Assembly (NCBI GenBank): GCA_038087875.1
Contig: CM075990.1
Location: 8,558,001-8,622,000, forward strand
DNA length: 64,000 nucleotides
From: Malacoraja senta
Taxonomy: Eukaryota
Direction of reading: 5' to 3'
Part shown: piece after piece, positions 2,345-53,446 of the stretch
How the letters are laid out: every line of letters begins with the position of its first letter
Position numbering within the stretch: the first letter of the stretch is position 1
The notes under the pieces: model-generated
What the model saw: only the letters and a program-made list of their open reading frames with translations
Database searches by the model: none
Told to the model about the DNA's origin: nothing
Position numbers and translations under genes: made by a program

Positions 2345-3099
2345 TAAGTTGGGAGACTGGAAGCACAAACAGATCATACTCTCAGGCAGTTTTGGCAACA
2401 CTTTGGCATGTTGTGAAGTCAAAGGTTGTCTCTGGATGTCTCTGTTTGCACCTCTCTGTTTGCACCATCTGATGCATAGTCGTCTTTCATGGACCACTTG
2501 ATCCTGCAGAATGGTCGGTCAGGAAAACGTTTTGGATGTTGAGAACTGCCAAAGGTAATTGCAGTCACGGGGTCCTTGCAAAATATGGTGTGGTTCCAAG
2601 ATGATCCTGTCCATTAATTCCAAAACATTTCAACTCATGTTGAGATAATGAGCTGGTGTAGGCCACTCGGCCCTTCAAGCCTAATCTATCAGTCAGCAAG
2701 ATCATGGTTGCCTGATTGCAGTCTCATTTCTGCTTTCCTCCCTCCCATGGTAGGCCTTCATCCCTTGTTGGGCAAGTTTCTATCCATCCCTCATAAATGT
2801 TCAAAAATGTTGCCTCCACCACCCTTTGTGGAAGGGAGTTCCAAAAACTCCTATTTTACCCGGGTTGCGTCTTATATTGGCAACCAGTCACAAAAGAAGA
2901 ATTCTCTGCGCATCTCACCTATCAAGTTCCTCAGGGTCTCATATGCCACTTCTCACTCTTCTGAACCCCAGAGGAATCCATTCAGCCCAATTTACTGTTT
3001 AGATCTTTGAATGACAAGTACGATTAATCCAATTCTGCTGCTCTTCAACCATGCGTGTAAAGTGTTTCACCTTCTAAACACCTTCTATCCTTTACTTGT

Positions 3100-18894: not shown

Positions 18895-19630
18895 TCAATT
18901 CAATTCAATTTTTTCAATTCAATTTATTTGTCTTTTGAGGGACAAATTTGTCATTTGGACCCCTTGAGGTCCAAACGAAATGTCGTTTCTGCAGCCATAC
19001 AATACAAAACAAAGAAGACCCGAGACACAACACAATTTACACATACATCCATCACAACGCTGTGATGGAAGGCAAAAATAACGTATCTCTCCACTGCACT
19101 CCCCCCCCCCCCCCGATGTCAGAGTCAAAGTCAAAGCCCCCGGCGGGCGATGGTGATTGTCCCGCAGCCATTAAAGCCACGCCGGGTGATGCAAGGTCGC
19201 GCACCGGGTCTTGGTGTTAGAGCCCCGGCGCTCGCCCGCAAAGTCCGGCAGCCATTCCAAGCCGCGCGGGGGGATAAAGCCCCGCTCCAGGTGCTCTTCA
19301 ACCCCGCAACTCGGGCGGGAGAAGTCGCCGCTGCGGAAGCCCCGAAAAGCGGTCTCCCACCAGGGGACCCGCGGGCTTCCAGTGTTGCCGTCCGCCAGAC
19401 CCGCGGTTGCAGCCCCCGAATCTCCGGCGGTCGGGTCGCAGCAGCGCCCCACCACAGCTCCACCCGCTCCGGACTCGGCCAGCCCCGTGACGGTGAGTAG
19501 TCCGCAGCTCCACAACTGGAGCCCCAGGTCGTTCCTGCTGGAGGCCGCTCCACGTTGCCCAGCCCCAACGACAACGGAGACCCGACAAAGAAAAGGTCGG
19601 GTCTCCCGTGCAGCGGAAAGATTTTAAAAG
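18895..19630 (-). mobile_element. GC-rich non-autonomous retroelement with (ATTGA)n/AATAAA tail
   Basis: A highly similar, 5'-truncated copy lies in opposite orientation at ~24091-24475. It has a simple-repeat tail and no recognisable protein. Clade uncertain. Confidence 0.65.
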
Positions 19631-20473
19631 AATTACAAGCAATGCATCACAACTGTCGAACCACAATCTAAACTACAATTATATTCTCCCTTTTAGAATC
19701 TAGTTAGTATCTTGAGTAAACTATTATCTTTAATTGATGCCTCTCGCCATTAATGATCATTTAACTTTAATTCAAAAGAAAAACTAATATTCACCAGCTA
19801 ATCACCCCCTATCTATCTGATTTCCTCAGATATAGTAAAGTCTTTTGGTTTTGACACCCCAATACTGCAAACTCCCTTCTTCTTTCGATAATCCGAGTTA
19901 TACCTGTTGACTTTTACTTTATTCATTTAATTAACATTTAGAAAATGATTCCATTGACTAAAAATAGTCTGACATTTTTTTCATATCCTTCAAGTTTGTC
20001 ATTTTATGTTTTTATCATTGTTTAATAATTCAACCATAAGCTAATTTCATGAACTCTTACCTTTTATTAATGTATTTTCAGTATTCAATATCCAGTTTAA
20101 TCTTCCAAATTCATAAAAAACAAACCCAGTTTCTTGCAAATCCCACTTCCTCTCACTAACCCACTGGCTTATACAACCAGCTTATTCAAATTCTACCAAT
20201 TATGTAAAATTTGTAGGAAGACAAAAATGCTGGAGAAACTCAGCGGAGGAATAGGTAATGTTGTAATTACAAGCATGTAATTGACTGAGCAGAACAACAA
20301 GTGAGGTAGAAAGATGCACCTTGCTAGTCTGAAGGAGTCTGAAGAAGGGTCTCGACCCGAAACATCACCCATTCCTTCTCTCCAGAGATGCTGCCTCATC
20401 CACTGAGTTTCTCCAGCATTTTTGTCTACCATCGATTTTTTTTTCAGCATCTGCAGTTCTTTCTTAAACATGT

Positions 20474-20858
20474 AACTTACAAAATTCTTAAGGGGTTGGA
20501 CAGGCTAGATGCAGGAAGATTGTTCCCGATGTTGGGGAAGTCCAGGACAAGGGGTCACAGTTTAAGGATAAAGGGGAAATCCTTTAGGACCGAGATGAGA
20601 AAAACATTTTTCACACAGAGAGTGGTGAATCTCTGGAACTCTCTGCCACAGAAGGTAGTTGAAGCCAGTTCATTGGCTATATTTAAGAGGGAGTTAGATG
20701 TGGCCCTTGTGGCTAAAGGGATCAGGGGGTATGGAGAGAAGGCAGGTACATGATACTGAGTTGGATGATCAGCCATGATCATATTGAATGGCGGTGCAGG
20801 CTAGAAGGGCCAAATGGCCTACTCCTGAACCTATTTTCTATGTTTCTATGTTTCTATG
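20474..20858 (+). mobile_element. Young CR1 LINE 3' end
   Basis: TYKILKGLDRLDAGRLFPMLGKSRTRGHSL..QRVVNLWNSLP..GYGEKAG and (tttctatg)n tail. An older CR1 remnant follows at ~20880-21720. Confidence 0.92.
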
Positions 20859-23800
20859 TAAAATTTGTATGTGGTTTATAGAGAGGTGGAATGGTTTCAA
20901 GACATCTGGTCATATGGGTGAGAAAGTAGCAAATGGAACTTAATGCAGATACTTAAGTCAGCTTCCTAAGTAGAAAATAGAACAATTCAGGGTGATGTAA
21001 ATTCATGCTGTTGGGAGATTCAATAAAATAAGATCAAACGCAATAAATGGAAGGACATCATGAATGGTGGAGAGATAGGGACCTTGGCGTGTAAGTTCAT
21101 AGGACCTTAAAGTTAGTAGGATAGTTCAAAAGGTGCTGAGTATGCTGTATCGTATTGGCTGTGATACAGAATATAAAAGCAGAAGGACAATGGTAAAATT
21201 AGATGCTGTGCCTGTTACAGTGCAGTTGAACCTCTGTTTCCACTTCTGGCCATGACATCTGGACAAAAAGGTGATGCATTGGAGATGGCGGGGAGGGGAT
21301 GCATGAGGCTACTGCCAGGAATGGAAAATCATGGCGATGAGGATGGATCAAATAGACAAAGGTATTTTTTTATAACAGAAGAAGCTAAGGAGGACTTAAC
21401 GGAGATGCATAAAATTATGAGGCACCTGGGCAGACTAAAAGGAAAGACACTCTCTCTCTAAGATGGGGTATCAAAAGGATGAGAGGGGAGATGAGGTCCG
21501 ATGATTTTGCCCAGAAGCTGAAAGCAAACTGAGACTCGCTGCCTGAAAAAGCAATGGAGGCAGACTCTCACCATTTATAAAGCATCTTAATATCTCCTTG
21601 AAAGACTGCAACTTGCATGGTTACAGATAAAGAGATGGATGGTAGAATTGGGCTGCATAGCTCTTTTTTTTAAAATCATGTAAGGACATGATGGGCTGAA
21701 TGGCTGCCTTGTGTTGTCAATTGTCTTTCCATGATATTCTTCTGCTTTCCTCCAACTGCGTTAACATTTTCCTTTAACTCTCAAAGAACCTCACCTTCTT
21801 TCTGTTAATACATAATCTCCACCTGAATTTTTACTTTTCTTCTTCAAGGTCTGCTTTAGATATTGCAGGGGCATCATGGTCATCATAGTTCACACTGTTT
21901 AAAAGCTCGCTCTGTAAGGACAAAAATCAATTTTTTGATGCCACGTTTGTTCCTCCTTCCAGAAGTTGATAAAATTGCATCGCTGCATTTGTTGATTCAC
22001 TCCATTATCTTAGTTCCCGATCAACTCTAGCAATTCTTAGCAACATGTTATAATTGATTTCTATCAGACTGACAAGTTTAACAGCAGTACTATCCAACCT
22101 CGAGACATACCCTGGCTTTTCTACCACACATTCTCTTGGATGTTCAATACATTTGTCCAAAACGTGTACTATCACCCAATGGATCTATTACATTTCAGCT
22201 GGTTTTAGTACCTAACTAGACCTTACTAGAGATTTCGTAAATACTTTTTTTGGATGTGTTCAGCCAGCTGATGTTCCTGTAATTGCTACACGTACTCTTG
22301 TCTCCTTTTTGAAAATTAGTGCTTTCATTTCACGCAGCCTTTAGGCACTTGCTGTTCTTTGCGAGTTTTGTTAAATCATTGCTGGATCGTTTTTACAATA
22401 TATTCCTTGCCCACCTGCAACATTTGCAGTCATCAAAATTAATTTCTTTATTCTTTCTCAAAATGACATTTAAATTCTTTTAAGAAAATTAAAGCTTTAG
22501 AAATGCTGGATGGGTCAGGCAGAAGCTGTGATGAGGGAAAGGCAATTGAATTCCTTGATCTTCAAAGTGACCCTGCAGCAACTAAAGACAGTCAGCACCC
22601 TCACACTGTGGAAAGAATGTTAGAAGGTACACAGGGAAAATGAATCACGGGAATGAGAAGAGGGAGTATGTCTGCATTTATGGGAGAAATAACATTTATT
22701 GAATGAATTTATGGAAAATCTGTGTTTCAGCCAGTTTGGTGATGTTACATGATGGGAGGACATGAGATAGGAGACAATTTCCTCAAGTGCACTGAAGGTT
22801 ACCTATACCAGAATCAGAGTTGTACCAAGAAGACAAAGGACGTTGGTGAGGTGCCAAAGACACGATTGCTGAGTTGGTCATTGTGTTTGTAGAGATCTCT
22901 CTTCATTTACCCTAAGAAATCACTTCATTTTGAGCATGTCACATGAAAAGAAGAGAGAGATTTTCACCGAGCTCCTATACATGTTCACACAAAGGGTGGT
23001 GGGTGTATAGAATGAGCTGCCAGAGGAGGTAGTTGAGGCAGGGACTATCCCAATGTTTAAGGCAGGTACATGGATTGGACAGGTTTGGACTGATATGGGC
23101 CAAACGTGGGCAGGTGGGACCAGTGTAGCCGGGACATGTTGGCCGGTGTGGGCAAGTTGGGCCGACATATCGCAGGTTGAAGATTATGGCGATGATGAGG
23201 ACCTCAATACATCATTGTGTCTGACACCTCACAGCCTCACCTCAGAGACTGCCTGTGAAGGGAATGAGAAGAATTGTTCAAGGGATATGTGACACAGGGA
23301 GATTTACCAACACTCACTCGTGTAACACAGCTTGGCGTCTGACCCAGGGATTCTAATAGGGACGCTCACCGGTATCAGGGTCTGCTCATCTGTACAGCCT
23401 GAGAAGACTTGGACGATGACTGCGATTGAAGTGTCCCCATAATCTAGCTGATGTAGAAGCACAGCGAGATGGGTAGTGAGATGCTCTGAGCAGCCTCAGC
23501 GCAGGAGCTGTTAAGAGGTGTGGAGGTCCCCATCTCCAAGCTCCTGTGGGATGTGGTGCGGGACAAGACAACCATGATCTCCATTCAAAATGTTTGTGTT
23601 CGTCTTCTAAGTCTGCACAAGTACTTGAGAGTCTTCAACGTACAACAATAGTCTTTATTACATTACTTCAATGCAAGACAACTCAAAATGGCTGCAACAC
23701 AGAATATGACTGCACATACAGACAGGATAACTATATACCAAAGATACTAGAGGAGCTCCGCTCTATAATCTTTGCTATATATATAGACATCTCCCTTTGT

Positions 23801-24024
23801 CCTTTGCAGCGCCACCTGCTGCACGGGAGGAGCAACGGGTCCTCCCACCCCACACAGTCCACCAAACATCACACTCTTCCCAAAAGATCAGCGGCAAACA
23901 GCATCTAAGGAGAAAAAAAACAGAATGCAGAGTGTTCCTTTAAATCAACACAAATGCCTCAAAGCAGCACCATTCACTTTTGGTTGCCCAGGGAGTGATG
24001 AACACAGGTCACGGATTGCAGTAA

Positions 24025-24989
24025 AGGGCCTGTCCCACTTAAGCAATTTTTTAGGCGACTACAGGCTACTAGGCTGTCGCCACATGGTCGCTGGAGCGGG
24101 GCTTTACATCGTCGCCCCGCGCGGCTTGGAATGGCCGCCGGACTTTGCGAGCGCGCGCCGGGGCTCTAACACCAAGACCCGGTGCGCGACCTTGCATTAA
24201 CCGGCGTGGCTTTAATGGCCGCGGGATATTCACCATCGCCCGCCGGGGGCTTTGACTTTGACTCTGACATCGGGGGGGGGGGGGAGTGCAGTGGAGAGAT
24301 ACGTTTTTTTTGCCTTCCATCACAGCGCTGTGATGGATGTATGTGTAAATTGTGTTGTGTCTCGGGTCTTCTTCGTTTTGTAATGTATGGCTGCAGAAAC
24401 GACAATACGTTTGGACCTCAACGGGGTCCAAATGACAAATTTGTCCAAACGACAAATAAATTGTATTGTATTGTAGTTGCAGCTGGGGTGTCGCCTGTAT
24501 GGTCGTGAGTAGTCTCCTCAGTAGCCGCTGGACTTTGAAATGTTCAAAAATTATCGGCTACAGCCGGCAACAGTGGGATTGACGCCAACGAGCGTAGCTT
24601 GACTTCTCCTGACGTAGGTGCTGTCGCAGGTTGTCGCCAGGTGACGTAGGTTGTCGCCGGTGCTGACTTCGGTGAATTCCATTGGCGACTGCCTACGTCA
24701 ACCTACGTCAACCGGCGACGGGTACCGGCGACTGAATTGTCTTAAGTTGTCTTCAGTCGTCGCCGACAGGGTCATCGCTTGTCGTAGCTTGTCGCGGGTG
24801 GACGTAGGTTGTCGTAGGTGTGGTCATAGGTGGACGTCCTAATGGGTCGCCGGTTGTCGGTAGCTTGACGGCGACTAGGTGGTAGGTTGGTTGTAGACAT
24901 TGTCGTTGGGGGGTTCAGTCGCTGTTTTTTCGGCGACCTGCTACGACTATGACAGTCGCCGAAAAAATCGTCTAAGTGGGACAGGCCCT
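24025..24989. mobile_element. PIF/Harbinger-type MITE with a nested retroelement (~24091-24475)
   Basis: TIR agggcctgtcccactta / taagtgggacaggccct, TAA TSD (24022-24, 24990-92). The interior is rich in gtcg/gtag repeats. Confidence 0.85.
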
Positions 24990-25320
24990 TAACACTCCCC
25001 GTCCTTTCCAACACAGTAGCCAACATGTGATGTGTGACATTGCTGGTGTCAAGCCCCAACAGGCTGAGGCAGATTGTGCATGAATGTATCCTGGCCACTT
25101 TCCTGTATAGCTGACATTTTAAGTTTAGGTTTTTGGTTTGAAGCTTTGTTTTACATGCTATCGGATCAGAACAGATAATACTACGCGCGAATCCAATCTA
25201 GTCAACCTCAAGTATAATAGGTAGACCAAAGGAAAAGAGGAGAGGATACAAAGTGCAGTATATAGTTCTTCGCATTATTTGCATTGTAGTGTATCAGTCC
25301 CATTGACAAAGTCCAACGTT

Positions 25321-25825
25321 CCTCCTAGTAGGCAAAGTAGATCAATTTCAAAAGACGTGGTCTACGTTTTTGGACCTATTACAAGCATGAGGTGCAATAG
25401 TAATTTAGAAAAACAAATAAATAAATAAAAGGTATCTGGACCTGGTAATGGGAGGTAAAATAAAAACAGACTTGGTTGGTAGTTCCTTCTCTATGAAGTA
25501 TGGTATAAGAGTTATAATAGAGCGATTGTTCCTTCTTTCTTTCTCTTTTTTTTTCTAGGGTCTATTTTCTAACTTTACTTCCTTCTCTAACTTCTTTTCT
25601 AAGGGGCTTTCTTTTCCCAACACTCTTTTGCACTTCACAACCTTTGCGCACTTTCTTCACTTTTCTTACTTCTTTCTTTTTCTTTCTTAAAGTTTAAAAA
25701 AGTGAAGCGGTACAAAAAATGTATTAATATATACGTGTTGTACATTACTGTAATCTACCGTACTTCTAAAAAATAAAAAAATAAAAAATAAAATAAAAAA
25801 TAAAAAAAAAAATAAAAAAAAAAAA
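25321..25825 (+). mobile_element. 5'-truncated L1-like LINE with poly(A) tail
   Basis: 16-bp TSD gacaaagtYcaacgtt (25305-20, 25826-41). Starts with the ORF end LLVGKVDQFQKTWSTFLDLLQA*. Pyrimidine-rich 3' UTR and A-rich tail at 25768-25825. Confidence 0.75.
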
Positions 25826-25886
25826 GACAAAGTTCAACGTTTGCAATGGGGGGGAGGTGAATCAGACCCTAGCACCATTCAGAAGC

Positions 25887-26183
25887 ACGGTGGCGTAGTG
25901 GTAGAGCTACTGCCTTACAGCGCCAGCGACACGGTTTTGATCCTGACTGTGGGTGCTGTCTGTACAGAGTTTGTGTGTTCTCCCCGTAACCCGCGTGGAT
26001 TTTCTTCGGTTTCCGCCCACACTCCAAAGACGTACAGGCTTGCAGGTTAATGAGTTTGGTATAAATGTAAAATTATCCCCAGTGCGTGTAAGGTAGGGTA
26101 GTGTTAATGTGCAGGGATCGCTGGTCAGTGCGGACTCGGTGGGCCGAGTGGCCTGTTTCCGCGCTGTATCTCTAAACTAAACC
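25887..26183 (+). mobile_element. HE1-type V-SINE
   Basis: From cacggtggcgtagtggtag to ctgtatctctaaactaaac. Confidence 0.85.
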
Positions 26184-26689
26184 AATGTCGAGGAAGAAAC
26201 TGATCCTGAGTCTGGTCTTGCACGCTTTCTAGCTTCACCCTGATATTCACCTTCAGCGATCTACACCAGGTGAAACGGTGTTTATGTGTTGTTGCGTGTG
26301 AAAGTCATATGCTAATGGATTCAGGTTCTAGGCTAATATGTTTATTCGTCTCTACCATTTATCAAATACTTAGAGAAACCAGAGAAGAGACAGCCCTAAA
26401 TTTATCAACATTTTATCACATTTCTCCAAAAGGTTTGAAGCGCTTCTTCACACGGAGAGAATTACTTTAAAGTGTCACAAGCAAAAGGATTTATTTTTAA
26501 TTCTTCCTGTGTTCATTGCCTGCTTCTTGTTTCATTTTCACGGCAACCTTCGTTCCAATTTCTTCTGCGATTTTTATTTTAGATTTTCATTCTATTTAAT
26601 TTCATTTTTTTAATCATTTTACTGGAATGGGGAGGGGGGGGGGTGCGAGGGGAGGGGGGTGGTTTGGCAAGGCTAGTGATGGTGTCCAG

Positions 26690-27345
26690 AACATAGCACA
26701 GGAACAGGCCCTTCAGCCCACAATGTCCATGCCAAGTATGAAGCCAAGATAAACCAATCTCCTCTGCCTGCACGTGATCCATAACCCTCAATTCTTTGCA
26801 TATCCATGTGCCTATTAAAACCTCCAAGCTCCACTATCATATCTGCCTCCACCTCCACTTGCAGCATGTTCCACACATCCACCACATTCTTTACAAAAAA
26901 AACTGTTCCACACATCTCCTTTAAACTTTGCCCCTTTCACCTTAAAGCTATGCCTTCTATTCTTTGATATTTCCAACCTAGGATAAAAGTTCTAACTGTC
27001 TCGCCTATTTATGCCTCCCATAACTTTATATCCTTGTCTATGTTTAATTTTGAGATACAGTGCGGAAACAGGCCCTTCGACCCACCGAGTCTGCACCGAC
27101 CAGCGATCCCTGTACACTAACACTATCCTACACACACTAGGTGCAATTTCCAATTATGCCAAGCCAATTAGCCTACAAACCTGTATGTCTTGGGAGTGTG
27201 GGAGGAAACCGGATATCCTGGAGGAAACCCACGCAGGTCACGGTAAGAACGTACAAACTCCGTGCAGACAAGCACCCATAGTCAGGATCGAACCCAGGTC
27301 TCTGCTGCTGTAAGGCAGCAACTCTACCACTGTGTCACCATGCGG
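26690..27345 (-). mobile_element. CR1 3' fragment (~26690-27030) followed by an HE1 SINE (~27045-27345)
   Basis: Reverse complements of the CR1 tail and of the SINE consensus. Confidence 0.75.
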
Positions 27346-28432
27346 CCCTGTGACCCAATAGTTTTATTATCATATATTTATGGAGCCATAGGTGGTCTTG
27401 GTTGCGTTCAGTGTAAGTGCAGACATGGACTCAGTCAAGTATCTTGAACTTAGATTTTATATGGAAATGGTGCAGCAGCTGCTGGTCCCATCTTATGTAG
27501 CTCATCTGAACATATCACACAAACTAGCCTTGTCGGTGTGCGGCCTTTATTAAGTGTGGTGGTTTATTATGGACCAGCGAAGTGCAAACATTTATTGAAT
27601 ATTGAGAATCCTACCTGCTACATGTTGCCTAATCTGATGAAGCTTCTGCTCTGTTCCTTATATTCAATTCAATTCAATTCAATTCAATTCAACTTTAATG
27701 TCATTGCACAAATACTGAGTATGGGTACAACGAAATGCAGTTTTGCGTCAGTCCGTAGTAGTAGTGCAATATAGAAATTTAAAAAAAAAAGAGGATACAG
27801 AATAATCAAAAATACAGAATAATTAACAATGGGGACGGAGGGACCGGAGGAATCTATCGGCGGAACTCCGAGTTCAGCAATGCGACGGTATAATTGTAGA
27901 AGCTGTTCCTCATCCTACTGGTACGAGACCTGAGGCTCCTGTAGCTCTTGATATGTTAGCATAGAGGGGAAATAATAGTCAGGCATTGAATAGAGTCACC
28001 AGCAATAATTGAATGAGTTGGTGCTTTTATCCAATCGGACCTATACAATACTGCTGTGGTCACCCATTTCACAGACTAAGGCTTGTAATGAATACTGTCA
28101 AATTGACATCAAAGTAACTGATCCCCTGTTAATCCCAAATTGTGCAGGAGGACACAAGATCGATTCTACTTGTTCATTTTCTTTAGCTGTTTAATATGCC
28201 ATGTTCCAATTAATTTCATGATGATGATCGCAATCAATAATGTATTTAAAGCAAATTTCATGTGTTTCACGATGAACGGGAGCTTAACCACCCAGCTGCC
28301 ACTAACAAGAATGCTATCATAAGCCGGCAACCAATTCTTTTAACAAATACTTTTTATTTTAAATGAATGTAAGGCAAGCATGTAATTAGGTGAGCAGAAC
28401 AACAAGTGAGGTAGAAAGATGCACCTTGCTAG

Positions 28433-28560
28433 TCTGAAGCAGGGTCTCGACCCGAAATATCACCCATTCCTTCTCTCCAGAGATGCGGCATGCCCCGCTG
28501 TTACTCCAGCATTTTGTGTCTTTCTTCGATTTAAACCAGCATCTGCAGTTCTCTCCTACA
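28433..28560 (+). mobile_element. Penelope-like pLTR remnant with 11-bp TSD
   Basis: caccttgctag at 28422-32 and 28561-71. Confidence 0.7.
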
Positions 28561-30568
28561 CACCTTGCTAGACTGTAGTTTGTTCCTACTGTATGTTGGA
28601 AGGCTTTGCATATATTAAAGAGCACTGGACTCATTCAGAATCCCGCACATTAGCGTGTTTGGACATTCACTGTTGAACATGTTTCTGTCAGCCGAAGCTT
28701 ATTAAATTTTAATAAAATACGTGAAGGTTCTCTTTTATCCTTGCGGCCACTTCTTTCAGCAGAAAGATCGACGTGATTGTGACGTTAGCAGTGGGTCATC
28801 ATTCTAAACTTCGCTGATCTTATCCTGTTTCCCTACCACCTTATCTTTTTTTTCATTTAAATCCTTGCTCTATTAATTATCCAGTTACTATTTAAAATAC
28901 CTCATTATATCTACCTTCGTAAGCACACGGCAAACCACTGCTGTTTGAATAACCTTCCCTGTGAAGAAAATTGCATTCTGTTTCTGATGATTTTAGGTTT
29001 GGTACAGTGGTTTGGAGATGGTATTACTAAACCAGCAAATGAAGGATAGACACAAAATGGTGGAGGAACTTAGCGGGTCAGGCATCATTCAGTGGTGTTG
29101 TTGAGCAATGCTGAGAGAATGTAAATTTAAATTGCACTTCTTGTTTCAAAGAAAAATAACTGGATATCTGTGAAAGCATCCACGATGATAATAGCCTGAC
29201 TGGCTCAGACTGAGAGAAAAAAACAAATTACCTTTGCTTCGTCTCGCCCAGCATGTGATTGCAGGCTCTTGCCAACTTTCTCAGAAGTAGCAAACAGTAT
29301 CATTATATTAAACTAAAACTGCAGTGCTTTGTGAAGAATGCCCACAAAACACCCTCTCAATGCAACTAGGAAGAAGCAACAAGTGGCGGCTTTGAAGTGA
29401 GGCCCACATCTCAGATCAGTGGTGGGAAGACCAGTGAGGTGATCTTTAGAGAAATTGGCACAGACATTGTGGGCCGAAGGGCCTGTTCGCGTGCTGTATT
29501 TTTCTTAGTTCTATGCGCTATGTAAAACCAATTGCTTTCCCTTGTGCTGAGCAGCCTTGAAGTGTTAACTCCTGCTGCTTCCATTGAAGCTGCTCTGGGA
29601 CATTTGCAGTGACTGTAGTCACTTGGGTTCACAAGCATCTTATGCTGCATCTCCAATCTCGGAAGCAAGTTGTCCACCTGAATCCATTTTCTTAATCGAT
29701 TGAAAAGAGAAGAAGATATTTCAGAAAATTATTATAAATGTTGGAGAAATTTAGAGATACAGCGCGGAAACAGGCCCACCGAGTCCGCACCGACCAGCGA
29801 CTTAGCACATTAACTCTATACTACATACTAGTAAGTAAGTAAGTATGTAAATACATTTTATTTATATAGCACGTTTAAATCAACTCACGTTGAAACCAAA
29901 GTGCTTTACATAAAAGAAATAATAAAAGAAATAATAACGTTTCCGTACATCCATAGAAAAATTAAAACCCAGAAAAATGACATAACACATTATAGAATTC
30001 AACAAGAACATCCCCCCACAACAGAATCAACATTTTCCACTGTGGGGAAAGGCAACAAAAAGTTAAGTCCTCTCCCTCTGTGAAACACCCGAGGTCGGGG
30101 CCTATTTGTGGCCTCCGCAGCCAGTCCGATGTTTTCAGGCCCTCTTTGCCGGAAAGCTGGAACTCCGGCGTCGGGTAAACACTCCTCAGTGGCTTGGAAA
30201 ATGTCTGGAGCGGCCGCTCCCTCCCCGGAGACCGCGGCACCCGTAGTCCTCAGGCTGCGCTGGTTGGAGCTCCGACTCTGACGATCTCGGATCCCAGGCT
30301 CCGCGGTGTTTTAAATCCAGCGCCGCCCGCAGCCACCGCTCCTCGATGTTGGAGTCGGCGGTCACCGCACTCCGGAGCTTACCGCACGGCGACCCGGTAA
30401 GGCATCGCCCGCTCCGTGTTGGTATCCCAGCGCTGTGCCGCCGCCGAAGCTGTAGTCCCGGCCGGTCCCGACAGGAAAACGCCGCTCCAGTTTCGATGGT
30501 AGGCCGCGAGGAAGGGGCGAAGAAACAGCTCGGAGGGAAGCCGCCTCTCCGACCAGGTAGGGGACTAA

Positions 30569-32414
30569 AGAGCCTGTCCCACCAGCATGCGACTGCATGC
30601 GTCTAGCGCGACCAAACGTGGTGGCTTGAGCCATACGGCCTCGCGGGGCCGGTCCCACTTCCAACCGCGGAGCAGTATGGAGCTGGTCCCGACATCATAC
30701 TCACCAATCAGCCGGGCAAGAGGCGGGCCGACTGAATTTGGACGTCGCACGGCGTCGGGCGGTTACGTCATCATGCAACGGCATGCCGGGCGGTGACGTC
30801 ATCGCGCAACACCATGCGCTAGGCGTACGCCGTCAAGGCATAAGGTCCCACATAAGAGATTAGTATACAAACTTAAAGCACACGGTATTGGGGGTTCAGT
30901 ATTGATGTGGATAGAGAACTGGCTGGCAGACAGGAAGCAAAGAGTAGGAGTAAACGGGTCCTTTTCAGAATGGCAGGCAGTGACTAGTGGGGTACCACAA
31001 GGCTCAGTGCTGGGACCCCAGCTATTTACAATATATATTAATGATTTGGACGAGGGAATTGAATGCAACATCTCCAAGTTTGCAGATGACACAAAGCTGG
31101 GGGGCAGTGTTAGCTGTGAGGAGGATGCTAGGAGGCTGCAAGGTGACTTGGATAGGCTGGGTGAGTGGGCAAATGCATGGCAGATGTAGTATAATGTGGA
31201 TAAATGTGAGGTTATCCACTTTGGTGGCAAAAACAGGAGAGTAGACTATTATCTAAATGGTGGCCGATTAATAAAAAGGGAGATGCAACGAGACCTGGGT
31301 GTCATGGTACACATTGAAAGTAGGCATGCAGGTGCAGCAGGCAGTGAAGAAAGCGAATGGTATGTTAGCATTCATAGCAAAAGGATTTGAGTATAGGAGC
31401 AGGGAGGCTCTACTGCAGTTGTACAGGGTCTTGGTGAGACCACACCTGGAGTATTGCGTTCAGTTTTGGTCTCCTAATCTGAGGAAAGACATTCTTGCCA
31501 TAAAGGGAGTACAGAGAAGGTTCCTGGGATGTCAGGACTTTCATATGAAGAAAGACTGGATAGACTTGGCTTGTACTCGCTAGAATTTAGAAGATTGAGG
31601 GGGGATCTTATAGAAGGTAGAAAGATGCACCTTGCTAGTCTGAAGGAGTCTGAAGGTCTCGACCCGAAACATCACCCATTCCTTCTCTCCAGAGATGCTG
31701 CCTCACCCACTGAGTTTCTCCAGCATTTTTGTCTACCATCGATTTTTTTTTCAACATCTGCAGTTCTTCCTTAAACATGTAACTTACAAAATTCTTAAGG
31801 GGTTGGACAGGCTAGATGCAGGAAGATTGTTCCCGATGTTGGGGAAGTCCAGAACAAGGGGACACAGTTTAAGGATAAGGGGGAAATCTTTTAGGACCGA
31901 GATGAGAAAAACATTTTTCACACAGAGAGTGGTGAATCTCTGGAACTCTCTGCCAGTTCATTGGCTATATTTAAGAGGGAGTTAGATGTGGCCCTTGTGG
32001 CTAAAGGTATCAGGGGGTATGGAGAGAAGGCAGGTACAGGATACTGAGTAGGATGATCAGCCATGATCATATTGAATGGCGGTGCAGGCACGAGGGGCTG
32101 AATGGCCTACTCCTGCACCTATTTTCTATGTTTCTATGTTTCTAAGATGCTGCGTACGGCGTCAAGACACTGCGTATGGCGTCGAGGCGGTGCGTGCGGC
32201 CTCCATGCGGCAGCGGGCCGGCAGGCCTTTGCCGCGCGGAATTTTTTAACACTGTCAGTTTTTCGGTGCCCCGCCCGATGTCGGGACCAGCTCCGCACAA
32301 CTCCATGCGGCTCCCGCGATCGAAGTGGGACCGGCCCCGCGAGGACGCACGGCTAGCGCGACCACGTTAGGTCGCGCTAGCCGCATGCAGTCGCATGCTC
32401 GTGGGACAGGCCCT
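30569..32414. mobile_element. PIF/Harbinger-type MITE split by a CR1
   Basis: TIR agagcctgtcccaccagcatgcgactgcatgcg / cgcatgcagtcgcatgctcgtgggacaggccct, TAA TSD (30566-68, 32415-17). Confidence 0.85.
30838..32143 (+). mobile_element. Young 5'-truncated CR1 LINE (RT domain to 3' end), disrupted
   Basis: [32 protein letters not shown] motifs with stops and frameshifts, and a (tttctatg)n tail. Confidence 0.93.
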
Positions 32415-33037
32415 TAAGAAATAAAGTTTCCCCCTTCCCCTCCCCCCACCCACCACATAAAAGACCTCCAACTAACATTTGTTTTTTGACAGGACTAAAA
32501 ATAAAAATAATAAAGGGTGAAAGGACGGACTGCAGGGAGAGCTGCCATACCTAACGGCGCCCCACTCATGCAGTCCGCCATCACTAGGGACAATTTACAA
32601 TTATGCCAAGCCAATTAACATACAATCCTGTTCATCTTTGGAGTGTGGGAGGAAACCGGAGATCCTGGAGAAAACCCATGCTGGTCACGGGGAGAACGTG
32701 CAAACTCTGTGCAGACAGCAGCCGTAGTCGGGATCAAACCCAGGTCCCTGGCGCTGTAAGGCAGCAACTCTACTGCTGCGCCGCTGTGCTGCCCAAATAC
32801 TAAACAATTTAGCATGATCCATCAATCAGATCAATAACATGCATGTCTCCAAGACACACATCAATAAATGTGATTGTTGAAAGAAGCCTCTTTGAACTTT
32901 GGATCAAAGTGTGGCATCTGCTTCTTTAACAACAAGAGTGAGTTTTGATATTCAACATTCACAACAGGTTGCTGCATAGATGGTTTTACTTTAAGTTATT
33001 GAATGCAATGAGCTTTCTGAAGCACACTTCTCAGCAA

Positions 33038-33646
33038 TTAAAGGAGTCTATGGCGGGCGAATAAGCAAGCCACACGTGGTGAATCAAAGAGATCCTTATT
33101 GTCAAAGCAAAGCTGCTTGGTTTCCCACAGCTCGTCCGCACGCACCGCTAGCAGCAGGGGATCTGCGAAGTCATCACCGGCGAGCAGCAGGCGGGTGTTG
33201 TCCGGCATGTGTTTCAAGAAGGCGTGTTTGAAGAGCAGGCAGGGCCGATGACCGTCCGTGAGGGTGAGCATCTCGCTCATGAGCACCGACGGCTTGCGAT
33301 CGCCGAGGCCGCCCATGTGCATGAGCCGCACTGCGCGGTCCCGGCGGCTGAGCCCAAAGGTCCGTAAGAGCAGCGCTTTAAGGCCCTCGTATTTGTCCTG
33401 ATCCGGTGGCGCACGTAGGTAAGGGACCAGGCGACCGGCCGTCTCCTGATCCAACGCACCGACCACATAGTAGCACCGGGTGTCATCAGCCGTGATGCGT
33501 CGAACGTGAAACTGGGACTCGGCTTGTTGGAACCAGACTTGAGGCTGCGATTTCCAGAACACGGGCAGCTTCAGGAAGACAGCATTCTGCTGGGATGGAT
33601 TGTCGGCGACCTCGGACTGTTGAGGTTGTTCATTGGCGGCAAACAT
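33038..33646 (-). CDS. Gypsy gag-like ORF (202 aa), C-terminally truncated and fused to the LTR remnant
   Basis: KLPVFW..PQVWFQQAESQF..I..D.T..YYVV.ALD and LGDRKPS.LM..M motifs are typical of Gypsy gag. It lies directly downstream of the PBS. Confidence 0.8.
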   Translation of the reverse strand: MFAANEQPQQSEVADNPSQQNAVFLKLPVFWKSQPQVWFQQAESQFHVRRITADDTRCYYVVGALDQETAGRLVPYLRAPPDQDKYEGLKALLLRTFGLSRRDRAVRLMHMGGLGDRKPSVLMSEMLTLTDGHRPCLLFKHAFLKHMPDNTRLLLAGDDFADPLLLAVRADELWETKQLCFDNKDLFDSPRVACLFARHRLL

Positions 33647-33941
33647 TGTTTAAATCCAAAATGACTGTTTTGGATCGTCGGGGTCACCAATATGGTGGGC
33701 GAATAAGCAAGCTACGTGTGGTTGTAAATAATAAACAAGCCACGTGTGAATAAAAAAAGATGTTTATTGTCAAAGCAAGGAGAACACACACACGCGAATG
33801 GGAGAAGGTTGACCCGGGGTTCATTATATACACCCCTATACCTCGTGACCACTCCTTCCCGCCATTACACAGTCACATGACCCTACCCCCGGCTGCCGAG
33901 GGTTCGCATAGTAAGTGGCCTAACCACCGGGTGGTGCCACA
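33049..33941 (-). mobile_element. Internally deleted Ty3/Gypsy (CsRn1-like) LTR retrotransposon
   Basis: 5' LTR 33941-33691, tRNA-Trp-type PBS tggtgaccccgacg at 33689-33676, 62-bp remnant of the 3' LTR at 33110-33049, 4-bp TSD agtc (33045-48, 33942-45). Confidence 0.85.
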
Positions 33942-35053
33942 AGTCCCACCGAAAACCAGGATACAACCTGAATTCCAGTGAGAGGGGAAAGGTTTAATAC
34001 GATGCTGAGGGGCAACATTTTCAGATGGAGGTTGGTACATATATGGAATGAACTGCCAGAGGAAGTGTGAAGGAAGGAACTGCAGATGCTGGTTTAAACT
34101 GATGATAGACACTAAATGCTGGAGTAACTCAGCGGGACAGGCAGCATCTCTGGAGAGAAGGAATGGATGATGTTTCGGGTCGAGACCCTTCTTCAGTCCG
34201 AAATGCCCGCCAGAGGAGGTAGTTGAGGCAGGAACAATAACAACATTTTAAAGACATTTGTGCAGTACATGGATAGCAAAGGTTTACAGGGATATGGTTG
34301 AAATTAGATTTAGGTTTAGGTCTATTATTTCCATGTGTACAGTGAAAAGTGTTTTGTTTTGCATGCTATCTAAGCAGTTCAGATAATACTGTACATAAAT
34401 ACAATCTTGTCAAGCACAATACATAGTACATTACATAGAGCAAAGGGGCAGATAAAGAGTGTCATGTTTCATCTTTTATTCATGTAAAGTCTTTTCTCTG
34501 ACGATAGTACACAAACAAAAGCTCTGCCATTGTTCATGATAATAATAAACTAAAGAGAGTCTGGGCAAAAAGGACTAGCACAGATTGGCATCTTGGTTGG
34601 GCCGAAGGGCAAGTTTCTGCACTGTATCACTGTATGGGCTAACTCTGAGAACGCTGATAGACACATGCACGCATGAGCTTGGGAACACCAACGCCGGGTC
34701 TGAAATCAAGTGTCACGACCCACGGGGATCAACAATTTCCATAAAGTATCAGAGGCAACGTATCTTGGCCAAAGTGTCCCAGGTATGGACGGAACAGTCA
34801 GTAAGGAGACTCCCCTCTCAAAATTAACTGCTTATTCAGGTATCCAGACAGAGATCCCATCCCACAGACCAGCCACCATGGGTCAATCCAAGATCCAGCC
34901 TGAATTGGAGTTCTTACAGCTTCTTGCGACACGAGTGGTGTAGCTATTGTTTCCAAAACGTTGTATTACACTTATGATATCCAAAGATAAAGAAGTGATG
35001 AAGACAATGATATTTATTCAAAGGGCCGCAGGCAGCAAAGCACTTCATGAAAT

Positions 35054-35244: not shown

Positions 35245-36409
35245 TATGTTAATATGCTCCTAAAGCTAACCCCCCCCCCCCCCCCAAGTCTAGTTCAGTA
35301 GAAAAACACCGACTCAAGCACTGGACCAACTAATCTTTATTATTTTAGAATGAACACAAACTCCCCTAAACGATACCTAAACCACTGCAGGTTTGATCCT
35401 TGTCTCAGCTAGGCCAAGCCCTTTAGATACACTCCAAAAGGTCACGCACTCCCAAGCGCTCTTCCAGAAGATCGACACCAATCTAAAATGGAGACACCTT
35501 TTATAGGTCCACGAACCTTGAGGGACCGAACTACATATGGGGTGATCTCTTTACAGTCCAATCAAACATATTAATTACAACAATACATTATTGATCGCTC
35601 CCCCAATCAATTACAGAATCTCCTATACATTGTTTCTCTAAAGAGCTTCTGAAAGGAAACTAACAAACTGAATAATGCAACATTTACCCTGGAACATAAA
35701 CAATCCTCTCAAGGCTTAACACTTTAACCAATCAACAAACAGTAGGGCAACCGTCTCGCAACAGTATTTACACTATTTACAACTCTCTTACAGCCATCCA
35801 ATCAAAGGGATGCATTCTCAATACCTTGGAGTTCCTTCTGCAAGATTCTCATACATAATGATACTTGGACTTCTCTTATCTGAAGGGCTGATCTGGGACC
35901 AAGACTTTCTGGCACCAGTCAGCAGCTTGTCCTCTTTTGCAGAACTTCACCATCAGGCCTTGAGAATGCATGGATTCTGTACTTAATTTTAGCCATCTTT
36001 TAGCTCCATTTTAGCCAGGATTTACATATATATTTTTCTTAGTTCTTTCTTTACTCATACTTGTGAGCTCTCACACTTACACACATTTATTGTTACTCAG
36101 GTTTATCACTATCATTTTTTCTTTGCAATTTCCTCAAGGGCCTGTCCCACTTGGGCGTCATTTGCGCGTCACGCAGAAGGTGCGCGAAGATTTTGAACAT
36201 CCCAAAATCCTGGGGCGGCGCGTCACTGCCTACGTCACCATGCGCCATGCGCGCATCACGTGCGTGCATCGTGCGTCGTGACACGTAAATGATGTTGCGT
36301 AAATTACGCACAAATGATGCCCAAGTGGGACAGGCCCTTTAGCCATCTCCCTAAAATCTGAAATGTGGACACATGCCTCTGTTCAAATCCATATCCTTTC
36401 CAATCCACA
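35245..36409 (-). mobile_element. Possible solo LTR (boundaries uncertain)
   Basis: On the minus strand: TG start near 36409, TATAAAA near 35505 and AATAAA near 35341, in LTR order. No convincing TSD found. Confidence 0.3.
36137..36338. mobile_element. PIF/Harbinger-type MITE
   Basis: TIR agggcctgtcccacttgggcgtcatttg / caaatgatgcccaagtgggacaggccct; flanks tca/tta. Confidence 0.8.
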
Positions 36410-39586: not shown

Positions 39587-40430
39587 GTCTGTAAGTGACA
39601 GAAGTGAATCGACCTTGTCTGCGAACCTTGTACAGGGGTGTGTGCTTGGAATGTTCTGAAATAATTCTCCGTTCGAGCAGTTACAGGGGAGACGCACGGT
39701 CCCTGAGATCCCTCGGATCGCGATGTCCGTGAAAATAATATTAGGCATCAGTTGCTGCATAACGGCGTGAAGTCTGGAAATACACATCGAGAGCAGTCCG
39801 ACAGTGTTTCTGTCTGCTCTGTCTGTGTTCGTTCTGTGAGGAGGTGGATGATAGAGAGACTGTGATCTGGAGAGGTAACATGCTTTGTTATCTGGCAAAG
39901 TAACAGCATAAATCAGGTGGAATAGTGACAATGTCTGTCATAAGGGAAGTTGGCTGCATCTGTCACATAGAGGGTGACTGATATTTTTAAATGAAGATAT
40001 TACCAATCGGGACAGAAGTTTAGTATCAACAACCGAGATTAGGAGAAACTTCTTTAATGTTAAATTAAACATTCATCATCTGTTTCATTATTCAGCGGGG
40101 ATTTTAATAATACCTTTTTTAACTGGGTCTCGATGCTCAGCTAGGTTGAAGTTTTGTTTCTCTAATGCTGGTGTAAGGGTTCAGGTCTAACCCCTTTGGG
40201 CTGATCGTGAAACAGAGCTCTGTTTTCAGAAGATAATTCTCCTCTGCGTGGAAGGAGAATTTCACACAGCTTTACCAAAGGGTACTGGGAAGTAAAAAGG
40301 ATCTGACTCATTTAAGAGAGCAGACACTCCAAGTGGATTGGAAGTCAAACATTTGGAAAGGCATTTTGCGCACATTATCACCCTTCCACATGTCTACGCT
40401 CACGCAAATTTACATTTGCAGACCAATTAA

Positions 40431-41823
<1,393 letters not shown>

Positions 41824-41869
41824 TTTTTAGTGGGTTGGATGATCAATGGATGGGGGGATGAGCTTTGTT

Positions 41870-42125
41870 GTGTAAGAAGGAACTGCAGATCTTGGTTTAC
41901 ACCAAAGCTCGACACTAAATGCTGGAGTAACTCAACGGGTCAGGCAGCATCTCTGGTGAAAAGGAATAGGTGATGTTTCGGGTCGAGACCCTTCATCACA
42001 CTGTTGGGAATGGGTGACTGAAGAGGTCTGAAGAAGAGTCGCGACCCAAAACATCACCCATTCCTTCTCTCCAGAGATGCTGCCTGTCCCACTGAGTTAC
42101 TCCAGCTTTTTGTATCTATCTTCAC
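41870..42125. mobile_element. Inverted pair of Penelope-like pLTR remnants
   Basis: Reverse arm ending cccttcatca, a short spacer, then forward arm ctgaagaagagtcgcgacccaaaacatc... Confidence 0.65.
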
Positions 42126-42493
42126 CTGAAGAGCTAAAGCTGGTCAATAAAATAAAGCGACTTCCCTCGGTTGTGGTCCCAGCACTAGGCTTGGATAAGC
42201 CAAAGGAATCTCTAGTTCTGCAGCTACACAACCATCGGATTGGGTTGTGAGTGAATTTTGGATCAACATGATACTTTCTTTGCCTGTAGCAGTTTCGAAA
42301 AATGTTACACAAGGAATAGCATCATTCCATGCACATCCTGTTGGAAGCTGGAATGAGGACAGGGAAGATTTACAAGTATGTTGCCAGACTTTGAGGACCC
42401 AAGTTATCGGGAGAGGTTGGGCAGGCTAGGACATTATTCCTTGGAGAATAGGAGACTGGGGAATAATATTAACGAAGTATATAAAATCATGAC

Positions 42494-44484: not shown

Positions 44485-45290
44485 AGTCATAGAGTCATAG
44501 AATTATACAGCATGGAAATAGGCCCTTCGGCCCAGCTTGCCCACACCAACCAACATGTCCCATCTACACTAGTCCCACCTGCCTGCATTTAGCCCATTTC
44601 CCTCTAGTCCTGTCCTATCTACGTGCCTGTCTAAATGTTTCAGGTCTCCAGAGATGCTGCCTGTCCCGCTGAGTTACTCCAGCTTTTTGTATCTATCTTC
44701 ACCTGAAGAGATAAAGCTGGTCAATAAAATAAAGCGACTTCCCTCGGTTGTGGTCCCAGCACTAGGCTTGGATAAGCCGAAGGAATCTGTAGTTCTGCAG
44801 CCACAGAACCATCGGGTTGGGTTGTGAGTGAGTGCCTCAACTACCTCCTCCGGCAGTTCGTTCCATACACCCACCACCCTTTGTGTGAAAAAGTTACCCC
44901 TCAGGTTCCTATTAAATCTTTCCCCCCTCACCTTAAACCTACATCCTCTTGTTCTCGATTCCCCTATTCTGGGCAAGAGACTCTGTCTATATACCCGATC
45001 TATTCCTCTCATGATTTTGTACATCTCGATAAGATCACCCCTCAGCCTCCTGTGCTCCAAGGAATAGAGTCCCAGCCTGCTCAACCACTCCCTATATCTC
45101 AGGCCCTCGAGGCCTGGCAACATCCTTGTCAATCTTCTCTGCACCCTTTCCAGCTTGACAATGTCTTCCCAGCAACATGGTGCCCAGAATTGAACACAAT
45201 ACTTCAAATGCAGCCTCACCACCGTCTTATATAACTGCAACATGACCTCCCAACTTCTATATTCAATACTCTGACTGATTAAGGCCAATG
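44485..45290 (-). mobile_element. CR1 LINE 3' fragment carrying a 187-bp templated insertion
   Basis: ORF 44674..45306(-): LERVQRRLTRMLPGL..FFTQRVVGVWNELP. (gagtcata) tail. Confidence 0.9.
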
Positions 45291-45959
45291 TTATGATCCA
45301 AACCAATGACCTTGTATGCTAACTTCAGCTCAGAGGTTATGAATGGTGACAAGGTTAAAAAGGGTTGTGGAAGGGTGGTTATATAGTTCTATAACTGTAA
45401 TCTGCAAGTATTGATTCACAATCACAGCTCGCTCAATTATTATCGGTCTCTAATTGTGTGATTAATGAAGAAATTATGCTGGTACCTCAGGTGTGAGACA
45501 GGGTATTGAGCAGCCTATTTTTGGCTCCCAACAATAAGCGTTTGGTCACAAAACACAGCATGCTGGAGGAACTCAGCAGGTCAGGCAGCATCCGTGGAGG
45601 GAATGGACTCAGGACGTTCCAGATCAAGACCCTTCTTCAGACTTCTTCAGCTGTCCGTTCCATCCACCAATGCTGCATGTCCCCTTTAGTTCCTCCGACA
45701 CTTTGTGTTTCCTCTTGATTCCTGCAACCGCATGGTCTTGTGCCTCGACTATAGTTTATCACCTGACTGCAGAGCGAATGGACCAGGAAGCTGAGAAGAT
45801 GAATGGTGGGACAAGAACATCAATCAAATGTACAAAAGTGTTCCAGTGCTGTTATTGCTGCTTCTGACCAACAAGCATCAAAAGAGGATCCATTTAGACG
45901 AGGAAAGGCTCAAATCAGATGTAGCTGAGTAATTGTATTGCATTGCCTTTGTACTGCAG

Positions 45960-53100: not shown

Positions 53101-53446
53101 GTAGGAAAGAACTGCAGATGCTGGTTTAAATTGGAGGCAGACACAAAATGCTGAAGTAACTCAGCAGGACAGGCAGCAAGTCTGGAGAGAAGGAATGGAT
53201 GACGTTTCGGGTCGAGACCCTTCTTCAGTCGGAAGCCGAGACAACACTTCCCCTCTCTCCCATCTACTTCCCCATCTCATGTTTGCAGTCGGAAGAAGGG
53301 GCTCGACCCGAAGCGTCACCCATTTCTTCTCTCCAGAGATGCCGCCTGTCCCGCTGAATTATTCCAGCATTTTGTGTCTACCCTTCAAAGTGTTTTATTA
53401 AATGTATTGACAGTGTAAACCAGCATCTGCAGTTCCTTCCAGCACA
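53100..53446. mobile_element. Inverted pLTR pair with a captured 52-bp spacer
   Basis: The arms are reverse complements. The spacer matches 55941-55992. Confidence 0.7.

What the first reader, a model, noticed from the sequence alone, without database searches (positions are those of the whole stretch)
20213..31780. The unique flank of one pLTR insertion was copied to two other nearby sites
Seen: the pLTR at 28433-28560 has an 11-bp TSD (caccttgctag), which marks it as an original insertion. Its left flank plus junction (28375-28439) reappears at 20270-20334 (62/65 identical), between a short inverted pLTR arm (20213-20260) and a forward pLTR. The last 31 bp reappear at 31615-31645 inside a young CR1. 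The 20.3 kb and 31.6 kb copies share the same variant pLTR and the same junction into CR1 (cttaaacatgt|aacttacaaaattc). Inference: template switching during pLTR insertion captured DNA or RNA from 8 kb away, and the composite was then transferred between homologous CR1 copies by ectopic gene conversion. This suggests a local sequence-shuffling mechanism centred on these ribozyme-bearing repeats.
Basis: partly seen in the sequence, partly recalled or inferred. Interest (0 to 1): 0.7.

Follow-up and report, generated by a model that had tools for sequence, protein, structure and literature searches.

The report
Nearby DNA copied via nested repeats
A short piece of ordinary DNA was copied 8 kb into the middle of a back-to-back retroelement pair and later passed on 11 kb to a neighbouring LINE copy, a real and datable case of known local copying processes rather than a new system.

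Summary
In detail: 62 of 65 nt match at site A (20.3 kb) and 31 of 31 at site C (31.6 kb), and contigs of other runs hold the outer junctions. The history can be read in four steps. (1) B (28.4 kb) is a solo Penelope-type pLTR with an 11-bp TSD, shared with two relatives. (2) A is a standard short+long inverted pLTR pair with a 14-bp TSD, whose centre holds B's flank. (3) A young CR1 later inserted into A's right TSD with its own 6-bp TSD; contigs of two relatives start aligning exactly at that boundary. (4) C received the insert from A: it carries A's target-site footprint, and A and C are nearly identical near the junction (3/238) but diverge like independent copies beyond (13/291). Capture by the RT at insertion is unproven; later repair of a break at the palindrome centre fits at least as well. 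No ribozyme role is seen. Both long fillers among 9 inverted pairs copy DNA from 2.7-8 kb away. A new variant of known templated insertion and TE gene conversion.

The parts
20202..20215 (+). Site A: left copy of the 14-bp TSD of the inverted pLTR pair
   Evidence: identical to 20856-20869
20216..20262 (-). Site A: short inverted pLTR arm, ending at the short-form end, with a 23-nt internal deletion
   Evidence: 43 of 47 identical to A's long arm; its nearest copies are A and C; X1 contig reaches 20242, X6 contig 20240
20262..20269 (+). Site A: 8-nt junction filler, a second small copy of B's flank
   Evidence: identical to 28381-28388
20270..20334 (+). Site A: captured copy of B's left flank (58 nt, including B's TSD) plus the first 7 nt of B's pLTR
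   Evidence: 62 of 65 identical to 28375-28439
20336..20469 (+). Site A: long (tail-bearing) pLTR arm, variant shared with C
   Evidence: hammerhead-like core motif present; folds back on the short arm, z -6.05
20470..20475 (+). Site A: left copy of the CR1's 6-bp TSD, equal to the first 6 nt of the pLTR pair's TSD
   Evidence: identical to 20856-20861 and 20202-20207
20476..20855 (+). Site A: 5'-truncated young CR1-type LINE with 8-nt-unit tail, inserted into the pair's right TSD
   Evidence: 94-95% to three other window copies; 6-bp TSD; X4 and X6 contigs align only from 20856
20856..20869 (+). Site A: right copy of the 14-bp TSD (its first 6 nt are also the CR1's right TSD)
28375..28432 (+). 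Site B: source flank; the last 11 nt are the left TSD
   Evidence: only three places in the window; X6 contig runs through it unbroken at single-copy depth
28433..28560 (+). Site B: solo long-form pLTR, ribozyme core motif decayed
   Evidence: 11-bp TSD; 18 of 127 different from A's long arm; right junction in X1, X4, X6
28561..28571 (+). Site B: right TSD
30841..32146 (+). Site C: independent young CR1-type LINE with 4-bp TSD, inside an inverted-repeat element
   Evidence: Pfam RVT_1 E 2e-14; TSD 30841-30844 / 32143-32146
31615..31780 (+). Site C: 166-nt insert (31 nt of B flank/junction, pLTR variant, A's target footprint), no TSD, no CR1 loss
   Evidence: genome-wide CR1 contigs skip exactly these 166 nt in 4 of 4 runs; footprint 6-mer at 31777-31782
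31615..31852 (+). Site C: inferred conversion tract (insert plus about 70 nt of CR1); right end approximate
   Evidence: 3 of 238 substitutions against A, then 13 of 291
53236..53285 (+). Parallel case: centre filler of the inverted pair 53101-53382, framed by a 10-bp duplication
   Evidence: 47 of 50 identical to 55943-55992

Best explanation
Four ordinary events stacked at one locus. (1) A Penelope-type pLTR inserted at B (shown: TSD, shared with two relatives). (2) A short+long inverted pLTR pair inserted at A with a 14-bp TSD (shown), and its centre acquired 58 nt of B's flank plus B's junction (shown). The long arm's inner end switched onto B's homologous pLTR start 8 kb away, slightly out of register, copied leftwards and was end-joined to the trimmed short arm (inferred). 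I put this at about 55% repair of a later break at the palindrome centre, 35% RT template jump during insertion, 10% other. (3) After the split from two relatives a young CR1 inserted into the pair's right TSD, priming on a tail-like motif and duplicating 6 bp (TSD shown; timing inferred from contig ends). (4) A break in the neighbouring CR1 at C was repaired one-sidedly from A, 11 kb away: the CR1 homology was used on the right, copying ran through the pLTR and 31 nt of flank, and the left end was joined without homology (direction strongly indicated; mechanism inferred). The pLTRs act as abundant homology and as fragile inverted repeats, not as ribozymes.
For: Nested TSDs at A. All 5 of 5 young CR1 copies have 4-6-bp TSDs overlapping the tail, while the 7 other pLTR insertions tested have 7-17 bp, so the 6-bp repeat fits the CR1 and the 14-bp repeat the pair. 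X4 record 9 and X6 record 17 both align from exactly 20856 with 22 unaligned letters on the left; 20856 is the boundary predicted if only the CR1 is missing, whereas a wholly empty site predicts 20855. X6 holds the arm. C carries A's target 6-mer. A-C substitutions step from 3/238 to 13/291 (permutation p 0.027); the distal 4.5% is like the independent pairs C-62193 (4.7%) and A-62193 (5.0%). At two CR1 sites C groups with copy 62193 and A with copies 37461/43108. Ages agree: flank copy 3/58, relatives 5.1-5.3%. All 9 inverted pairs read as one short plus one long arm, the known PLE layout (PMC3846280, PMC8557442). Conversion between Alu copies is raised within 10 kb (PMC6598467).
Against: The 22 unaligned letters in X4 and X6 are not printed, so CR1 absence is inferred from position only; X4's left contig appears to stop near 20213, so its arm is not shown. 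The split fixed beforehand (insert vs CR1) is not significant (p 0.41); only the fitted change point is. Only 3 of the 6 footprint letters are informative (about 1 in 64 by chance). C's left join keeps the CR1 contiguous to within 1 nt and has only a 1-nt overlap, which one-sided repair does not strictly predict. Fillers are not significantly younger than arms (6/108 vs 15/133, p 0.17). No whole genome was available, so low-copy homologues of the flank elsewhere are not excluded. No contig spanning C's junctions was displayed.
Confidence: 0.72

Rival explanations
1. Same order of events, but step 2 is the first reader's mechanism: the Penelope RT, priming both strands to build the inverted pair, jumped onto nearby DNA or nascent RNA at B during insertion.
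For: The filler lies inside one TSD-bounded PLE insertion. PLEs capture unrelated sequence between pLTRs with TSDs (PMC3846280). The purified PLE primes both strands (PMC11167929). An L1 co-inserted nearby pre-mRNA (PMC10191854). All 4 local copies in the window are in direct orientation.
Against: The 53-kb filler sits between two copies of a 10-bp piece of the pair's centre, as if put into a finished pair. A's short arm has lost its inner end and has an 8-nt templated patch. Fillers are less diverged than arms, though not significantly. The 44.6-kb case replaces about 16 nt of host LINE and shows no clear TSD.
Confidence: 0.3
2. C is the original site: the whole pair inserted into the CR1 at C, A is a local retrocopy of that composite with a 15-bp TSD, and C later lost the arm by deletion between 7-bp repeats.
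For: The CR1 is contiguous across C's insert. The short-arm end and the start of C's 31-nt piece share a 6-7-nt motif. C has several other deletions. A 15-bp direct repeat frames all of A.
Against: X6 has A's arm while X4 and X6 appear to lack A's CR1. C carries A's target footprint. CR1 TSDs here are 4-6 bp. A and C diverge distally like independent copies. A retrocopy landing 11 kb from its source and ending exactly at the arm's end needs two coincidences.
Confidence: 0.07
3. The flank is part of a dispersed repeat subfamily and the three copies are neighbours by chance.
For: No whole-genome search could be run; most joints and loose ends were not displayed.
Against: It ends exactly at B's TSD. 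The X6 contig crosses it unbroken at depth 17, where unique DNA has 13-17. X1 breaks at 28420, as expected where B starts to be shared with A. pLTR 5' flanks in contigs are heterogeneous (agreement 0.35) and CR1 contigs run straight through the site.
Confidence: 0.04
4. Misassembly.
For: No displayed contig bridges an inner junction of A, or either junction of C, by the 31-letter rule.
Against: The copies differ by 16 substitutions and two deletions; each element has its own TSD; outer junctions recur in other species.
Confidence: 0.02

Closest known systems
Penelope-like element insertions with inverted pLTR, 30-40-nt tail and captured host DNA (PMC3846280, PMC8557442, PMC11167929; passages or main text read)
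   Same: Head-to-head short and long arms about 40 nt apart in length, TSDs of similar size, unrelated sequence captured between pLTRs within a TSD.
   Different: Here the captured piece lies between inverted arms and its source is found 2.7-8 kb away; the passages I saw do not trace captures to nearby sources. No PLE ORF lies in the window.
Local templated insertions at breaks or at retrotransposon junctions (PMC7025897, 10.1101/2024.08.27.596794, PMC10191854; passages read)
   Same: Short genomic piece copied into a junction from nearby; joins with little or no homology.
   Different: The L1 templates described lie within 15 bp of the site, or are one case of nearby pre-mRNA; here they are kilobases away, germline-fixed and at PLE repeats. 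A 2-6-kb class of templates at human deletion breakpoints is recalled (Abyzov 2015; not held).
Non-allelic gene conversion between neighbouring TE copies (PMC6598467; passages read)
   Same: A tract of raised identity between two nearby, independently inserted copies.
   Different: The tract runs off the end of the homology and carries 166 nt of foreign sequence (one-sided invasion plus end joining; term recalled).
Recombinogenic non-spaced inverted repeats (PMC3300023; abstract only); centre-break palindrome revision (recalled)
   Same: Non-spaced inverted repeats attract repair; 7 of 9 pairs here have centre gaps of 12 nt or less.
   Different: Shown there on episomes in mammalian cells, not on PLE pairs in a germ line.

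Membership tests
Penelope-like element (pLTR) | Inverted 5'-truncated pLTR adjacent to a direct one | tested here: met
   9 head-to-head pairs in the window
Penelope-like element (pLTR) | Optional 30-40-nt tail on one arm | tested here: met
   each of 9 pairs reads as one short and one long arm, ends about 35-40 nt apart
Penelope-like element (pLTR) | Minimal type I hammerhead motif in the pLTR | tested here: inconclusive
   core pattern (written from recall) in 10 of 32 pieces of 85 nt or more, in A but not B or C; no Rfam hammerhead hit; cleavage untested
Penelope-like element (pLTR) | Partner ORF with telomerase-like RT and GIY-YIG endonuclease | not testable with these tools
   none noticed among 67 ORFs listed (5 stretches scanned); no genome held
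Penelope-like element (pLTR) | Short TSD | tested here: met
   7-17 bp in the 7 insertions picked for this test, 14 bp at A; many other copies show none
CR1-group LINE | RT-coding ORF2 | tested here: met
   Pfam RVT_1, E 2e-14 at 30839-31186
CR1-group LINE | 5' truncation and octamer microsatellite 3' tail | tested here: met
   8-nt-unit tails, varied 5' ends; feature per PMC4316615
CR1-group LINE | RT phylogeny within the CR1 clade | not tested
Ectopic gene conversion A to C | Donor and recipient are separate insertions | tested here: met
   own TSDs of 6 and 4 bp; distal divergence 4.5%
Ectopic gene conversion A to C | Tract of raised identity | tested here: inconclusive
   fitted change point p 0.027; prior split p 0.41
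Ectopic gene conversion A to C | Unconverted recipient allele in a relative or individual | not testable with these tools
   C is swamped by other CR1 copies
RT template-switch capture at insertion | Filler as old as the insertion (no filler-free orthologue) | tested here: inconclusive
   6/108 vs 15/133, p 0.17; relatives' contigs do not reach the centre
5' transduction from B | The moved pLTR is the donor's own copy | tested here: not met
   A's arm differs from B at 18 of 127 sites while the flank differs at 3 of 58

The most novel reading that the evidence does not exclude
The Penelope enzyme itself, while priming both strands to build an inverted pLTR pair, routinely jumps onto DNA or nascent RNA within about 10 kb, so that these very abundant repeats are a genome-wide engine of local sequence shuffling, and the fillers record which neighbouring sequence lay next to the integration site.
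Probability: 0.25. Interest if true: 0.65.

Novelty: new variant of a known kind. Interest (0 to 1): 0.36.

Why it matters
How Penelope-like elements make their inverted structures is still open (PMC8557442, PMC11167929). Here both long centre fillers among 9 inverted pairs trace to DNA a few kb away, and the repeat is dense (45 pieces in 64 kb), so a genome-wide count of fillers, their source distances and their ages against the arms could tell RT jumps from later palindrome repair. The locus also shows a caution for TE-based phylogeny: a shared pLTR-CR1 junction at two sites arose by conversion, not by a chimeric subfamily. No gene or function is touched as far as seen.

Tried and rejected
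Whole-genome BLAST: no genome held. First reading of A as one CR1 retrocopy with a 15-bp TSD (notes 16, 23) was dropped after and a re-reading. Searches for further CR1 copies by one 24-nt pattern found 0 in metagenome and 0 in viral contigs. Rfam: 0 hits at gathering score in the window; 10 weak hits, none a hammerhead, in 19800-34500. No RNA holder listed; no RNA run laid. 4 of 24 listed runs were laid; X9 gave no informative displayed piece at the junctions; over 600,000 pieces and 15,153 joints were not shown. The end of the X6 contig 2 letters past 28439 may reflect a second copy of the flank in that species or a heterozygous site; not used. Age test of fillers against arms: not significant. 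Three look-ups of earlier findings returned nothing. Abyzov 2015 is not held; the citing paper gave no distance figure. Searches for a prior description of nearby-sourced fillers in pLTR pairs showed none in listings or in the passages read; supplements were not read and most subscription papers are not covered.
Full report
Setting. The window is repeat-rich eukaryotic DNA (probably a cartilaginous fish, a recalled impression from the repeat families; no call tested it). No genome is held. A 90-135-nt repeat occurs as 45 pieces. I call the three sites A (20.2-20.9 kb), B (28.4 kb) and C (30.8-32.1 kb), and the copied flank F.

Observation. F plus junction matches 62 of 65 nt between A and B and 31 of 31 between C and B. 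B has an 11-bp TSD. F occurs at these three places only in the window, and the longest exact repeat in 20 shuffles was 14-18 nt. A and C are each other's nearest pLTR and share the junction into the LINE.

What the repeats are. Nine head-to-head pairs each read as one short and one long arm. That is the layout described for Penelope-like elements: an inverted, shorter pLTR, a 30-40-nt tail on one arm and a TSD of 8-10 bp (PMC3846280, passages; PMC8557442, passages). A purified PLE cuts and extends both strands and starts at two RNA sites that delimit the tail (PMC11167929, main text). A hammerhead-like core pattern is present in 10 of 32 longer pieces, in A but not in B or C; Rfam finds none; minimal PLE hammerheads are described as a variable, low-activity class (PMC4209133, passages). 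No partner ORF was seen, so PLE membership rests on anatomy. The LINE has an RT domain and an octamer tail as in CR1 (PMC4316615, passages); its clade was not tested.

A is nested. A 15-bp direct repeat frames all of A, which first suggested a single retrocopy. It resolves into two TSDs. The 14-mer at 20202-20215 recurs at 20856-20869, and its first 6 nt also stand at 20470-20475 between the long arm and the CR1. All 5 of 5 young CR1 copies have 4-6-bp TSDs that overlap the tail, while the 7 other pLTR insertions tested have 7-17 bp (these 7 were picked for having one, many other copies show none). So the pair inserted first, and a CR1 then inserted into its right TSD.

Other runs. 4 of 24 listed runs were laid. 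X1 (same species, possibly the assembly's own sample) matches the outer junctions of A and the right junction of B with 0-1 other letters. Its contig left of B stops at 28420, where a 31-letter word first becomes shared with A (word length inferred from the tool text). None of these reaches 31 letters on both sides, and C's junctions were not displayed. X4 and X6 are about 5% diverged in the displayed pieces (228/4296, 233/4569). Both hold B's right junction. X6 holds A's arm to 20240 and crosses F unbroken at single-copy depth, which argues against a young dispersed family. Both have a contig that aligns from exactly 20856 with 22 unaligned letters before it; that is the boundary predicted if only the CR1 is absent, while a wholly empty site predicts 20855. 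The letters are not printed, so this is inference; X4's left contig seems to stop near 20213. CR1 contigs in 4 of 4 runs skip 31615-31780, so C's insert is 166 nt with no loss of CR1.

Direction and mechanism of the A-C sharing. C contains A's target 6-mer at 31777-31782; 3 of its letters are informative. C's CR1 has its own 4-bp TSD. Between A and C there are 16 substitutions in 529 aligned nt: 3 in the first 238 and 13 in the next 291 (change-point permutation p 0.027; the split fixed beforehand, insert vs CR1, gave p 0.41). The distal 4.5% resembles independent pairs at 4.7-6.4%, though one independent pair is at 1.9%. At two sites C sides with copy 62193 and A with the other two. I read this as one-sided repair of a break in C from A: homology on the right, end joining on the left. 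Conversion between TE copies is raised within 10 kb (PMC6598467, passages). Unexplained: C's left join keeps the CR1 contiguous to 1 nt with a 1-nt overlap; a 6-7-nt motif shared by the short-arm end and the start of C's piece allows a variant in which a longer tract was copied and then shortened.

How F got into A. F ends with B's TSD and 7 nt of B's pLTR, followed by a repeat of the pLTR start, so B's junction was the template and the switch was slightly out of register. A's arm is not B's pLTR (18/127 different), which rules out simple 5' transduction. Two routes remain. For an RT jump: PLEs capture host DNA between pLTRs within a TSD, and an L1 has co-inserted nearby pre-mRNA (PMC10191854, passages). 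For later repair at the palindrome centre: the short arm has lost its inner end and carries an 8-nt patch copied from B; the pair folds back strongly (z -6.05); non-spaced inverted repeats are recombinogenic (PMC3300023, abstract); and the parallel filler at 53236-53285 lies between two copies of a 10-bp piece of the pair's centre. Fillers differ from their sources at 6/108 and arms from each other at 15/133 (p 0.17), so age does not decide. I favour repair, about 55 to 35. Nothing points to the ribozyme; its mutants did not change insertion in vitro.

Recurrence. Of 9 inverted pairs, 2 have a centre gap over 30 nt and both fillers match window DNA 8.1 and 2.7 kb away. Two more local copies touch a pLTR edge: 42068-42254 at 44645-44831 (180/187) and 58029-58097 / 59126-59194 (58/69). 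Each would touch an edge by chance 2-3% of the time, but I chose these pairs after setting aside two-copy matches that looked like transposon ends or copies, one of them includes pLTR sequence, and their uniqueness is known only within the window.

Comparison with the known. It works like local templated insertion (PMC7025897, passages; 10.1101/2024.08.27.596794, passages) followed by TE gene conversion. I found no description of nearby-sourced fillers in inverted pLTR pairs in the listings or the passages read; supplements were not read. Also seen but not used: 10.64898/2026.07.22.740005 (part 1 of 5), PMC12350158 and PMC7706730 (passages).

Verdict. Real, well resolved, built from known processes; the recurring local filler is the only part that may be new and is testable genome-wide. 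New variant of a known kind; interest 0.36.

Noticed in passing
window 53101-53382 and 55943-55992: Inverted pLTR pair whose 50-nt centre filler copies DNA 2.7 kb away (47/50) and is framed by a 10-bp duplication of the pair's centre.
   Followed up: partly
window 42068-42254 and 44645-44831: 187 nt (half a pLTR plus 130 nt of its flank) copied 2.6 kb into an older LINE on the minus strand, replacing about 16 nt, no clear TSD.
   Followed up: partly
window 58029-58097 and 59126-59194: Older 69-nt local duplication (58/69) whose end abuts a pLTR insertion site.
   Followed up: partly
window 20328-20345, 42015-42035, 45630-45650, 53226-53295: The first 7-10 nt of the pLTR are duplicated at the inner end of several copies.
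   Followed up: no
window 27651-27939: About 290 nt that an X4 contig skips (and probably an X6 contig): a lineage-specific insertion.
   Followed up: no
window 33038-33778: Gag-like frame (Pfam DUF7041, E 9e-19) between short direct repeats; looks like an LTR-retrotransposon remnant.
   Followed up: partly
window 2008-2345, 24021-24993, 30565-32418, 36133-36342, 60732-60975: Family of inverted-repeat elements with a shared terminal motif; the CR1 at C sits inside one.
   Followed up: no
window 30841-32146: The CR1 at C has deletions of 5, 13 and 19 nt against other copies, and 4 nt in its pLTR.
   Followed up: no
window 18915-19290 and 24091-24468: Two inverted copies (93%) of a GC-rich 380-nt repeat, high copy in the laid runs.
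   Followed up: no
window 40430-41828: Long imperfect CA/CT microsatellite with higher-order periodicity.
   Followed up: no
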